DNA of 64,000 bases from Mobula hypostoma (taxonomy: Eukaryota), in contig NC_086098.1 in NCBI RefSeq assembly GCF_963921235.1, positions 236,778,001-236,842,000 of the forward strand, in the 5' to 3' direction. Made by a program: the position numbers and the translations under genes. Shown piece by piece: positions 43,001-49,000 of the stretch. The notes under the pieces were generated by a model. That model had not been told where the DNA came from. It saw nothing but the letters and a program-made list of their open reading frames with translations, and did not search any database. Numbering within the stretch: position 1 is the stretch's first letter; every line of letters starts with the position of its first letter.

Positions 43001-46000
43001 GACATTCTACTCTCTGCAGGAACTCCACTGGTATCTGTGCCTATTCCCAGTCGGACATAGAGCAGGCATTCCGAAACCCAAAACTGAAGGGCTTCACCGG
43101 CAACCTACCTGGGGGCCAGAGGCCAGGAACGGTATGAACAGTTTTAGGAATGAGTTCAGTGTGTTCTTGCCCATTTGTTGCTTGGACCAAAATTTATTTT
43201 GTGGAGGACAGAAGTAGGGAAGTGTAGGAGGAAAGGTTTAGAGGACAAACATGGGCAAATGGACAAGCTTAGATGGGAATTTTGGTCGGCAGGGGCCACA
43301 GAACACAGTAAAGCACAGCATAGCATAGGCCTTTCGGCCCACAAGTCTCTGAAACGCTAATGTATCTGCCTCTATCACCACCCCGGCAGTGTATTCTATG
43401 CACTCACCACTCTGTGCAAAGGAAACCTACTTCTGATATTGCACATTACCATACATTCTTTCAATCATCTTAAAAGGATACCCTCTCATATTAATCATTG
43501 CTGCCATGTGAAATAGGCACTGGTTATCCACTCTATTTATGCCTCTTATCATCTTTTACACCTTTATCAAGTCACCTCTCATCTTCCTTCATTCCAAAGA
43601 GAAAAGCCATAGTTCAATGTTCTCAAGACATGCTCTCTGTTGTGTATGTGGCCTGGTTACACAACAATGCTATTAATAAGAACGCTGGAGACGGGAGCTA
43701 CGGTTCATGGTTCTTTACTGGCAGAAACTGAACTTGGCACATATGTACAGATCAATACATGCCTAATAGCACATGCTCAATATATGCCTAATAGTGCATT
43801 CAACAATGTGTTATTAAAACATAAAGTAGTCCCTTATTATACTGCAGGCCATACGGTACACTCCTCCCCTTTTATTTTAATACTGTATCAACTTTTTTTT
43901 ACTGGGGCACTATGGTAAACAAATATGTTTACCCTTAAGTGCCATTTGTTTACTTAGTAACTTAATAATACCAAATTATAACAAAGTAACGTAATAATAT
44001 TAAATTATAACAAGCCTTTTAAAAAAAAAATCTTTTGGTCTAAGACCCATTTATAACTCAAGTCTCTTGCGGGGGGGGGGGGGTCCTTCTCTGCCTCTCC
44101 GGGTAACGTCTGTCAATAAACTTGTTTGTTTTAATTCGGATTTCCATATAAAAGTCATGAAAAGTTGATCTCTGAGCATAGGGAGTTAAGAAGATGTGCG
44201 CCTCCAACTTGCTGAAAGTTCTAGGCAGCAGATCACCTTCATATAATGAAGACTCCTCTGTGCAGCTGTCCTAGATATATCCGCATCTTTGCGCTATCAC
44301 TTGTCTTCTTTACCCATATCTCATTTGTTCCAACACAGCCAATCTTCGTATTGTCCTTAGATTCCAAATAGATAGCCTGACCTTTATGATACCATTTCCA
44401 TAATATAACTTTCCATCTTCTATTTGTGCTTCATGTTTTTGTGCTGGTGATTCAGCAGGAGTGCTGGGAAGATGCTCAGGAGAAGATGGAGATGCTGGTC
44501 TTTTTGGAGATTTAAACTTATTGAGAGTTCGCAGATCTTCCATCATCTGTTCCTCTGTTAGCAAGTACAAAGTTTGTAACTTAACTGCACAGGTGCAGGT
44601 TGTCCTCTTTTGTCTGTAATTGGAACAGGGTCATTCGGTCTCCTCCTTAGTTTCCTAGTCATTATTGGCTTTACCTCCATAGAATCTCCTGTGAGTTCCA
44701 TTGTTAGCCTCTCATTCTCAATCATCTTTTTTTCTTCCAACTCAATCTTTTTAATCTTCAGATTCCTTCACTGCTGCTTTCTTCTCTTTAATATAATTCC
44801 TTTTCACTTGTTCTGTCTCCAGTTGCAGAAAAAGCTCTGCATTTCGTATTCTTTCCTTGTATTGTTGATCTAGTTTCTTCATCCTTTTCTGATACTCCTG
44901 CAAAGTGCCTTCCTGTAACTGCTGTAGCTGTCTTTTGAGAGATATCAATTTCTCCTGGTACATCTGCTCTTTTACTTCCAGGTAGTCTTCATCATCCCGC
45001 TTATTGGCAATATCTGTCTCCCTTGCATCCTCTGTATCTTCATCCGAGTCATGGCCACGGATACTGCATTCGTCCTCATTGTCGACGCTGTCCAGCTTCT
45101 CATTGTTGTAATAGTCGACAATGGGTAAGAGGAGAGCTGCGGACATCTTCCTTGCCGAGCTGCCCTCCTTTGTTGACACATTTAGTGCCTTGATGGTGTG
45201 CCAATCCAACTGGATTTTCCTGAGCCATTCACGTCCCAGCAAAGGTGGTTCTCCATTTTTCAGTACATAGTGGTTCAGCTGCTGTGTTTTGGCTCCGTAG
45301 GTCACTGTCTCTTTAATTTTACCTTTGGGATGCGCTTTCTGTCCTGTGTAAGTCTTTAGCAGGAGTTTAGTTCGTTTCAGAGGTATGTGAGAAAACAGTC
45401 GTTTGTAGTCGTGTACAGAGATCACTGTTAAAGCTGAGCCTGTGTCCAACTCTATTTTCAGTCTTACGCCTGCCACTTGTGGAGTGATATCCTTATTACT
45501 CTTTGATCATGTCTCTTTCACACTGTGAAGTTGCAGACAAGACAATTCACTTTCATCTGAGTCATTTTCATCAGAACTGCTTTCTTTCATGTTGTGTACA
45601 TTATTGTGTTTTCCTTTCTGGGATTTCTTGTTTCTCTGTATTTTGTCCTTTTGCTGCTGTTTACTAGCTTTGCATATTCTGCCAATGTGGCCCTGTTTGC
45701 CACAGTTTCTGCATTCTGTGTCTTTAAACCAAGAGTCATCTGAGTCATGTGACCTATTCCCACAACGGTAACATTTCTTTCCTTCATTTCTGTTCAGTGA
45801 CATTTTATTTGTGGCATATTCCAGAGATTTTTGTTGTATCTCGGAAGCACCCTGTGCCGCTGTTCCCGTTGATATTGCAATGTTTAGCGCTTTCTCAAAT
45901 GTAAGGTCTCTTTCACACAGAAACTTGCCACACACTAACTTATTTCCTGGCATAATTTACATAGTCATAGTATAGTCATAGTCATACTTTATTGGTCTCG

Positions 46001-49000
46001 GGGGAAATTGGTTTTCGTTACAGTTGCACCATAAATAATAAATAGTAATAGAACCATAAATAGTTAAATAGTAATATGTAAATTATGCCAGTAAATTATG
46101 AAATAAGTCCAGGACCAGTCTATTAGCTCAGAATGTCTGACCCTCCAAGGGAGGAGTTGTAAAGTTTGATGGCCACAGGCAGGAATGACTTCCTATGACG
46201 CTCTGTGCTGCATCTCGGTGGAATGAGTCTCTGGCTGAACGTACTCCTGTGCCCACCCACCCAGTACATTATGTAGTGGATGGGAGACATTGACCAAGAT
46301 GGCATGCAACTTAGACAGCATCCTCTTTTCAGACACCACTGTGAGAGAGTCCAGTTCCGTCCCCACATATTACTATTTAATTATTTATGGTTTTATTTCT
46401 ATTTAATTATTTATGGTGCAACTGTAACAAAAACCAATTTCCCCTGGGATCAATAAAGTATGACTATGACTATTGTGAAATTTAAACCTTTCAGCAATGA
46501 CCAGTGGTTTGGGGTTTAAATGCTGTTGGACAGTGTCTACTATTTGCTTGAATGCTTTGTCAGCTGGCTTTTCAGGGGTCAACAAGCTCCGTAGCAGGCC
46601 GTATGTTTTTGCTCCCATAATACTGAGGAAGACGCTGGCTTTCTTTTCGTCCTTAACACTGTTAGCCTCACAATATAACTCCACTCTTTCAATGTAAGTT
46701 GCCCAGTCTTCAATGCCACTATCAAATGCTGTAATGGTTCCAATCATCGCCATCTTTGTTATGTTAATTAAGCCCCGTTTTCCCCTTATTTTCCTTTTTG
46801 ACTCGCGTGTCCTTTTTGCTAGCGCCACGAGCGCACTCTGTCTAGATGTGTGTGTGTGTGTCGCTCCTTTTTATCTCCTTGCTGGGGCAGGCAGACCCTC
46901 AGCCCCTGGGGGGTGAGGGGGGGGGTCAGCACTGGCTGTGGTCTTGGCTGGACGAGCTGCGGCTCCGACTGTGTCTCTTGGTTTCCCGGCATTCCCGACC
47001 CCGGCTGTGCTCCCGCTTCCTTTCAGACTCGTGGCCTCGCTCTGCCTCCTTCTCCCACTCCTTGGCTCGTTCCTTGCGCTCTTCTTCCGAGTGTCATTAT
47101 CAATTAAAACACGGCATTCCAATACGACGCAAGTTCATTAACCTCATTGCCAATTTGTTGTGTATGTGGCCTGGTTACACAACAAAACTATTAATAAAAA
47201 CGCTGGAGACGGGAGCTAAGGTTCATGGTTCTTTACTGGCAGAAACCGAACTCGGCACACACGTACAGATCAATATACGCCTAATAGCACATGCTCAGTA
47301 TGTGCCTAATAACGCATTCAATAACGTGTTACTAAAACATAAAGTAGTCCCTTATTATACTGTAGGCTATACGGTACACTCTCTAATCCAGGCAAGCATC
47401 CTGGTAAAATTCCTTTGCAACCTATCTACAGCTTCCACATCCTTCCCATAATGAGGCAACCAGAAGTGAACACAATATTCTGAGTATATTCTAACTAGGG
47501 TTTTATAGTGCTGCAACATTATCATGTGGCTAGAACACAATCCCCGACTAATGAAGGCCAACATACTATATGCATTCTTAACCACCCCAACAACTTGAAT
47601 GAACCAGTTGGGCTGTAGGGCCTGTACCCTTGCAGTATGATGCAATGATTTGAAGTCTTGAGCAGTTGGGTAAAGTATTGGTGATGCATTCTAGGCTGTG
47701 TGCAGTCTTGAGTACCTTGCTAAAGGAGGATAAACTGGCTTTCAGAGTGGTGCAGAGGACTGCTTACTGCAAAGAGGAAGGTTTGAATCAGTTGGCTCAA
47801 TATTTACTGGTGTTTAGGACAAGGGCTGATCAGTGAGAGGTTGCTTGATGGCGATGTACGATGAACAAGTTTCTCCGGACTGGAAAGATCCAGAGAAACA
47901 ATTTCTTTTTCAGGACACTAAAGGAAATGGAATTCTTCCCCCTCCCCTTCTTCCTCTTTCAGGTCGTCATCTCCCCTCCTGGAGATGAGGAGGAATTGCT
48001 TTTCCCAGAGAGGAGTGAATCTCTAGAATTCTCTGGCCATTACATTACATTACATTTGAGGCTACCTCATTAAATATATTTAAGATAGATAGACTTTTGC
48101 ATAGCAGGGGTTATGGGAGAAGACGACAGGTAGGTGGAGCTGAGTCCACGGACAGATCAGCTGTGATCTACTGAATGGCGGAGCAGACTTGATGGGCCTT
48201 ACCTTAGAATTCAGTGTTTTAATTCCACTTGGGTAAGAAGAAATTGGAACATAAGAATTTGGATGATATTTGGGGTCAAGGCCACAGCTCAGAATGGTGA
48301 GACTTTACTGGATGGCCAGGCAGGCTTGAATGGCTGAATGGACTACAAGCCCACCTCTTTAGTTTCCAAATCCTTTGATTGAGATGCATCAGTGGGGCGT
48401 TCATGGTGGCTAGGTGTCTGGTCAAAAATGAGAACTGGACACACTGGAAAAAAATGACTAAATGGCTTCATTTCCACAGTGCATCAAGGTGACCCCACCC
48501 AAAGTCATTCAAGCCATCAGAAGCTTCCCAGAAATTGAGGCGCCTATCTACCCATTTTTGAATCACCCACTCTACGTTATGAAGCACAACAACTACACTA
48601 GGATTACAGCGGACAGAGTGAAGGGGGCCAACCAGGACGTCTATCATGTCCTATTCCTTGGTACAGGTACGATACATTCACCAGACTAGCACATGTCTCA
48701 GTTTGGTGGGCTGTGACGGGTGGGAAATTCCAGGAATTGAGGCCCAGCTCCAGGCTATTTACAGACTACATCAAACATAATTGTACTATTTCCAGGACTG
48801 GTGAGGCATGGAACAAGGTGTGAAGACAAGTTGCGATAGGGAGGTAGGGAAGCTCCAAGGGGAAGCTAAATGATCAGGCAAACCGTTCAATAAGGAACAA
48901 TGCAATGTCATCCATTGGTAGAGAAAGACCATAAGACATCAGAGCAGAATTAGGCCATTTGGCCTATCAGATCTGGCTGTTTTATTATCCCTTTCAATCC

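What the first reader, a model, noticed from the sequence alone, without database searches (positions are those of the whole stretch)
44751..45953. Gag-protease-SUDS3 share one reading frame: ancestral polyprotein fusion
Seen: ORF 44751-45476 reads without a break from the protease (LDTGS...LLGREWL) through [16 protein letters not shown] into SUDS3 Met1 (45146) and ~130 aa of SUDS3, including its coiled-coil. Gag C-terminus is in the same frame, separated only by one TGA at 45507-45509. Inference: the ancestor could make a Gag-PR-SUDS3 polyprotein, with SUDS3 occupying the RT position where the protease normally cleaves. A released or truncated SUDS3 might act as a decoy or modulator of Sin3/HDAC silencing. 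An in-frame junction has a 1-in-3 chance of arising randomly, so this is a hypothesis only.
Basis: partly seen in the sequence, partly recalled or inferred. Interest (0 to 1): 0.75.

Follow-up and report, generated by a model that had tools for sequence, protein, structure and literature searches.

The report
Ray retrotransposon with in-frame SUDS3 cargo
This is one dead copy of a ray jumping-gene family whose copying enzymes were replaced by a spliced copy of the host gene SUDS3, joined in frame to its own coat protein and protease; an unbroken frame likely helped the family spread, but nothing shows that the SUDS3 part kept a job.

Summary
The in-frame join is real and family-wide: protease and SUDS3 share a frame in 67 of 75 scorable copies. 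The element is a pol-less Ty3/gypsy LTR retrotransposon. RT, RNase H and integrase were replaced by the spliced SUDS3 mRNA at a 7-nt microhomology shared by RT-bearing relatives and the host 5' UTR. Gag and protease sharing a frame is uninformative, since the parent family has one ORF. The TGA, the SUDS3 truncation and a gag insertion are late damage in this copy; no break is shared by most copies. The decoy idea is not supported: copies decay at dN/dS 1.0, shared SUDS3 changes are mostly amino-acid changing (7:2), and all copies lack eight residues of the dimerisation coil. A second, unrelated gypsy family here also joins cargo (RABEP1, SH3KBP1) in frame after its protease (21 of 24 copies). 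So an open frame, not SUDS3 function, was likely favoured, as in mouse IAP 1Δ1. The scan noted this family many times, and this same claim once, on other DNA.

The parts
47156..47378 (-). 5' LTR, 223 nt, TG...CA
   Evidence: 19 of 223 positions differ from the 3' LTR; 5-nt target-site duplication GAGAG on both sides
47142..47152 (-). primer-binding site, decayed here; in other copies complementary to the 3' end of tRNA-Ser(GCT)
46473..46753 (-). gag N-terminal part
   Evidence: ORF; aligns to residues 1-93 of a fish Gag-Pol
45927..46472. foreign insertion with inverted ends, replacing about 145 nt of gag; not in the 29 other copies
   Evidence: no Pfam hit for its ORF
45510..45926 (-). gag C-terminal part with CCHC knuckles
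   Evidence: Pfam zf-CCHC E 1e-4
45488..45512 (-). stretch out of register between two small indels of this copy; holds the TGA at 45507-45509
45166..45487 (-). aspartyl protease (LDTGS intact) and short linker
45159..45165 (-). 7-nt microhomology GGGCAGC: 5' template-switch point
   Evidence: in the host 5' UTR and in 27 of 33 RT-bearing copies
45147..45158 (-). 12 nt of SUDS3 5' UTR, read as four codons
44221..45146 (-). whole spliced SUDS3 coding sequence (12 exons), with the family's 24-nt in-frame deletion and this copy's own breaks (first near 44753)
44108..44220 (-). 113 nt of SUDS3 3' UTR, ending in a 5-nt microhomology (CAGAC) with the integrase end: type A junction
43861..44107 (-). 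last integrase codons, 3' untranslated stretch and polypurine tract
43638..43860 (-). 3' LTR

Best explanation
This is a dead copy of a gypsy LTR retrotransposon family that carries the spliced host SUDS3 gene in place of its RT, RNase H and integrase, in frame behind its Gag and protease; the family likely spread with enzymes borrowed from intact relatives, and an open translated frame, not SUDS3's function, was likely what favoured it. Steps: (1) Shown: cargo is a spliced mRNA, joined at microhomologies. (2) Inferred: it was taken by RT template switching inside a particle. (3) Strongly inferred: the founder had one open frame of about 400 Gag-PR codons plus SUDS3 lacking eight residues. (4) Inferred: copies were co-packaged with RT-bearing helpers and recombined with them, so gag varied while the cargo stayed one version. 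(5) Inferred, weakest: translating Gag(-PR) through an unbroken frame helped the RNA in cis, as reported for mouse IAP 1Δ1, with SUDS3 as filler. (6) Shown: all sampled copies now decay neutrally.
For: Host gene has 12 exons over 59 kb, one AT-AC intron; copies are intronless. 7-nt and 5-nt microhomologies. 0 of 77 SUDS3-carrying loci hold RT/RH/IN. RT-bearing relatives are as close in gag-PR (9.4% between groups, 8.5% within) and of like age (LTR pairs 10% mean, n=21, versus 8-9% in 3 RT-bearing loci). Shared gag-PR variants are 17 N: 18 S against 346: 97 for singletons (p=3e-4), 24 of 35 also common in RT-bearing copies; shared SUDS3 variants are 7: 2 against 382: 107 (p=1). The one family-wide indel is in frame, whereas 32 of 135 private indels are. 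An unrelated gypsy family joins RABEP1 in frame after its protease in 21 of 24 loci, by two junction forms, with an SH3KBP1 coil inserted in frame. IAP 1Δ1 cis effect: passages of PMC6466679 and PMC7411935.
Against: One junction is in frame by chance with p 0.33-0.47, and the microhomology alone explains its position. The RABEP1 family was picked from earlier notes that had flagged it as in frame, so it is not an unbiased sample. The gag-PR versus SUDS3 contrast (17:18 vs 7:2) is not significant (p=0.15), and gag-PR variants special to SUDS3 carriers (6:5) reach only p=0.08. The cargo's shared history is so short that few breaks were expected anyway. The 77 copies are the best scorers of three searches, not a random draw.
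Confidence: 0.55

Rival explanations
1. Pure passenger: the capture and amplification are as described, but the frame is luck. The RNA spread only because it kept LTRs, primer site and packaging signal.
For: Junction fixed by a 7-nt microhomology; chance 0.33-0.47; dN/dS 1.02 and 1 of 55 full-length copies unbroken, as Poisson decay predicts; most of the purifying signal in gag-PR is shared with RT-bearing copies.
Against: The fixed deletion is also in frame, and a second family shows in-frame entry by two junction forms plus an in-frame SH3KBP1 insert.
Confidence: 0.32
2. One reading: protease released a SUDS3 variant that interfered with Sin3/HDAC silencing and so helped the element spread.
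For: Whole coding sequence captured in frame, just after the protease; Sin3-binding and Tudor segments retained; protease motif intact; an 8-residue loss could make a poison subunit; SUDS3 is tied to heterochromatin (PMC8800102 passages).
Against: No amino-acid constraint at any frequency class. Of 7 fixed non-CpG synonymous differences, 6.7 are expected on the host line alone, leaving 3 amino-acid changes for the element's stem. Unrelated cargo (RABEP1, SH3KBP1) sits in the same slot in another family.
Confidence: 0.1
3. A domesticated copy: this locus or another serves the host as a second SUDS3 or fusion gene.
For: RefSeq lists several 'SDS3-like' proteins in two Mobula species, some nearly full length.
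Against: This copy has several breaks. Unbroken copies are no more common than decay predicts (1 of 55), and 0 of 77 loci have an open frame over the whole gag-PR (some loci are cut short).
Confidence: 0.03

Closest known systems
LTR-mediated retrocopies of animals (Tan et al. 2016, PMC5131818; 12 passages and section 8 read)
   Same: Internal ORF replaced by a spliced mRNA; microsimilarity at switch points (median 6 bp); both LTRs kept; further rounds of retroposition.
   Different: In the passages seen, two fly retrocopies have more than one insertion site; here there are at least 77 and probably hundreds, with the whole coding sequence in frame behind Gag-PR and two alternative 3' junctions.
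Mouse IAP 1Δ1 (passages of PMC6466679 and PMC7411935; the primary paper was not available)
   Same: Non-autonomous element whose internal loss leaves an in-frame Gag fusion; needs helper proteins in trans.
   Different: There the fusion partner is the element's own pol and the cis effect was tested; here it is a host gene and the effect is inferred. IAP is a retrovirus-type element.
Maize Bs1 (passages of review PMC13317346)
   Same: LTR element carrying transduced host sequence that forms a chimeric reading frame.
   Different: Bs1 holds fragments of three genes and is reported as transcribed and translated; here one whole coding sequence, now decayed.
Gag-onc fusions of acutely transforming retroviruses (recalled, no call)
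   Same: Host mRNA replaces pol, fused to gag, needs a helper.
   Different: Those fusions are selected for the host protein's activity; no such selection is seen here.

Membership tests
Ty3/gypsy LTR retrotransposon (derived, non-autonomous) | Two LTRs with TG...CA ends and a target-site duplication | tested here: met
   223-nt LTRs, GAGAG duplication
Ty3/gypsy LTR retrotransposon (derived, non-autonomous) | tRNA primer-binding site and polypurine tract | tested here: met
   site matches tRNA-Ser(GCT) 3' end in other copies; purine run before the 3' LTR
Ty3/gypsy LTR retrotransposon (derived, non-autonomous) | Parent with gag-PR-RT-RH-IN order | tested here: met
   33 RT-bearing relatives; alignment to a 1315-aa single-ORF fish polyprotein with that domain order
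Autonomous Ty3/gypsy element | Own RT, RNase H and integrase | tested here: not met
   0 of 77 loci
Mag clade of Ty3/gypsy | RT phylogeny with named Mag elements | not tested
   label recalled from single ORF and paired CCHC; no tree built
LTR-mediated retrocopy (Tan et al. 2016) | Intronless host mRNA replacing part of the internal ORF | tested here: met
LTR-mediated retrocopy (Tan et al. 2016) | Microsimilarity at both switch points | tested here: met
   7 nt at 5', 5 nt at 3' type A; type B shows no clear match
LTR-mediated retrocopy (Tan et al. 2016) | Further retroposition from one capture | tested here: met
   77 dispersed copies share one 5' junction; 70 of 70 spanning copies show the deletion
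IAP 1Δ1-like cis-acting Gag fusion | In-frame Gag fusion in a non-autonomous element | tested here: met
   67 of 75
IAP 1Δ1-like cis-acting Gag fusion | Translation of the fusion raises transposition in cis | not testable with these tools
   only indirect frame statistics
Transposon-encoded anti-silencing factor (VANC-like) | Purifying selection on the captured protein | tested here: not met
   low power on the stem
Transposon-encoded anti-silencing factor (VANC-like) | Expression and effect on silencing | not testable with these tools
   only contigs of runs guessed to be RNA

The most novel reading that the evidence does not exclude
Ray gypsy elements repeatedly swapped pol for host coiled-coil mRNAs exactly behind the protease and kept them in frame because the Gag-PR-cargo protein itself aided spread: by favouring packaging of its own RNA, or, for SUDS3, by releasing a poison subunit of the Sin3/HDAC complex. 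This would be a germ-line counterpart of gag-onc transducing viruses, amplified to hundreds of copies in a vertebrate.
Probability: 0.15. Interest if true: 0.8.

Novelty: new variant of a known kind. Interest (0 to 1): 0.45.

Why it matters
It gives a likely cause for SUDS3 being a top source of retrocopies in cartilaginous fishes, which a 2026 preprint lists without naming an LTR carrier in the passages seen (10.64898/2026.06.26.734816): one capture, then transposition. 'SDS3-like' gene models in mobulid annotations are probably such copies. If in-frame capture is a rule across ray gypsy families, it makes a testable case that non-autonomous LTR elements need an open frame, which would also explain how host pieces are stitched into new reading frames.

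Tried and rejected
No RNA holder on record was listed for the junction; this says nothing on expression. Contigs of eight runs guessed to be RNA were laid: pieces bridging the junction by 31 or more letters appear for coded organisms A, D, E, G and I, none listed for B, C (table cut) and F; no silent-stretch control, so only presence of the junction is taken from this. The frequent protease stop (33 of 72 copies) was tested as an inherited break and rejected: it is as common in RT-bearing copies (15 of 33) and sits at a CpG. Types A and B show no diagnostic sites elsewhere. Searches for other cargo families by Pfam Slu7, Myosin_tail_1, Myosin_head and PWI returned mainly host genes, so the SLU7, myosin and RBM25 leads are unchecked. 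A first frame call for the RABEP1 family against a distant protein was noisy (9, 7, 5 by frame) and was redone with a closer ruler. The frame test returned nothing through a script error and was redone. A first de-duplication dropped three distinct loci and was redone. No structure or complex was predicted: a pass would only mirror solved Sds3 structures. Literature: searches found no report of this element; the mobulid genome preprint has no mention of SUDS3 in its main text; bioRxiv supplements could not be seen and may list these copies.

Full report
What is there. The minus strand 47378-43638 is an LTR element: two 223-nt LTRs (19 differences), a 5-nt target-site duplication, a primer site that in other copies matches tRNA-Ser(GCT), gag with CCHC knuckles, a protease, then SUDS3, the last integrase codons and the 3' LTR. 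The nearest named SUDS3 proteins are from rays, 91% identical.

The family. A search with the junction gave 1103 first-look candidates, 40 scored; that query also matches RT-bearing relatives. A search with host exon 1 gave 360 candidates. These are not copy numbers. From three searches I kept 77 distinct SUDS3-carrying loci of 97 (20 were duplicates). They are 4-7% from the host gene and at least 3.6% from each other, with little sub-structure in the cargo. LTR pairs differ by 10% on average (6-14%, n=21). None holds RT, RNase H or integrase.

The capture. A pattern for residues that the copies lack hit one place only, the host gene. It has 12 exons over 59 kb, including an AT-AC intron; the cargo is fully spliced. 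RT-bearing relatives exist, about 91-95% alike in the protease. The 5' junction is a 7-nt word present in the host 5' UTR, 12 nt before the ATG, and in 27 of 33 RT-bearing copies, 5 codons before the RT N-terminal helix. There are two 3' junctions: type A (113 nt of UTR, 5-nt microhomology; 29 of 77) and type B (about 340 nt; 29 of 77; 19 unassigned). A can arise from B by a switch onto a helper RNA (inference). This is the mechanism of Tan et al. 2016.

Was the founder's frame open? Very likely. Gag and protease share a frame in the parent family, which has a single 1315-aa ORF in fish relatives, so that part of the finding carries no weight. Protease and SUDS3 are in frame in 67 of 75 scorable copies (2 unscorable). 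No stop or frameshift is shared by most copies. The commonest stops are CpG arginine codons, and the top one is as frequent in RT-bearing copies (33 of 72 versus 15 of 33). This copy's TGA lies between two small indels of its own; its SUDS3 break near codon 132 is in 3 of 77 copies; its gag insertion is absent from 29 other copies.

Was SUDS3 under selection? After insertion, no: non-CpG dN/dS is 1.02; 1 of 55 full-length cargos is unbroken, against 1.0 expected. Before and during spread: fixed differences from the host are 10 synonymous, 3 amino-acid changing and one 24-nt deletion (70 of 70 spanning copies). The host line alone should give about 6.7 non-CpG synonymous changes; 7 are seen. 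The host protein is identical over the affected coil in three ray genera, so the amino-acid changes most likely fall on the element. The deletion removes eight residues inside the coil solved as PDB 4ZQA, the dimerisation region (PMC8800102). Variants shared by 10% or more of copies are 7 N: 2 S in SUDS3, like singletons (382: 107), but 17: 18 in gag-PR against 346: 97 (p=3e-4), as in RT-bearing copies (24: 21, p=0.002). The method thus sees constraint where expected. Against over-reading: 24 of those 35 variants are shared with RT-bearing copies, the gag-PR versus SUDS3 contrast has p=0.15, and the stem is very short. No outgroup DNA was available to polarise the fixed changes.

Was the frame itself favoured? 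One junction is in frame by chance with p 0.33-0.47. The fixed deletion is in frame too, while 32 of 135 private indels are. Following earlier notes, I checked a second family. Pfam Rabaptin gave 88 matches; of the 24 best non-host loci, 21 have RABEP1 in frame behind a protease of a gypsy family with no DNA match to ours. Two loci join further into RT and 22 at the protease end. An SH3KBP1 coil (PDB 2N64, E 1e-11) sits in frame inside the RABEP1 piece; one locus reads protease, RABEP1 and SH3KBP1 in 277 stop-free codons, and the return to RABEP1 is in frame in 2 of the 6 loci printed. This family was chosen because notes called it in frame, so it is suggestive, not an unbiased test. Mouse IAP 1Δ1, whose in-frame Gag-Pol fusion aids its own transposition in cis, is the precedent. 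Unrelated cargo in the same slot argues against a role special to SUDS3.

Distribution and expression. 'SDS3-like' proteins of two Mobula species lack the same eight residues. Junction-bridging contigs occur in runs of five of eight coded organisms, so the capture may be older than one species. The runs are only guessed to be RNA; expression is not shown.

Novelty. The mechanism is known. Eight literature searches found no description of this element; one preprint lists SUDS3 among top retrocopy parents in cartilaginous fishes. The scan itself had noted the family many times and this same in-frame claim once. Verdict: observation largely right, ancestral open frame likely, decoy function unlikely (about 0.1), frame selection plausible (about 0.55). 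Interest 0.45.

Noticed in passing
L162-L185 (Rabaptin matches): A second pol-less gypsy family, at least 80 places, joins RABEP1 in frame after its protease, by two junction forms, with an SH3KBP1 coiled coil inserted in frame.
   Followed up: partly
window 44108 and loci such as L005, L007, L011: Two 3' junction types (113 versus about 340 nt of host UTR) at equal frequency, with no linked differences elsewhere; suggests recombination with helper RNA.
   Followed up: partly
G000:C78:8398854-8395736 (L037): Host SUDS3 intron 7 is an AT-AC (minor spliceosome type) intron; several database protein models differ at this point, probably from mis-splicing in annotation.
   Followed up: partly
P0004-P0008, P0031: RefSeq 'SDS3-like' proteins of two Mobula species; the six lack the same eight residues and are probably copies of this element.
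   Followed up: partly
run X7, record 27 (window 44618-45232): A contig bridges the junction and has 31 gap letters, which would fit the host-type 24 nt being present: an assembly chimera with host mRNA, or an undeleted form in another species.
   Followed up: no
window 45927-46472: 547-nt insertion with inverted ends and a short tandem tail inside gag; no Pfam match; origin not determined.
   Followed up: partly
G000:C68:15.30-15.91 Mb: Tandem cluster of myosin heavy chain genes with near-identical matches.
   Followed up: no
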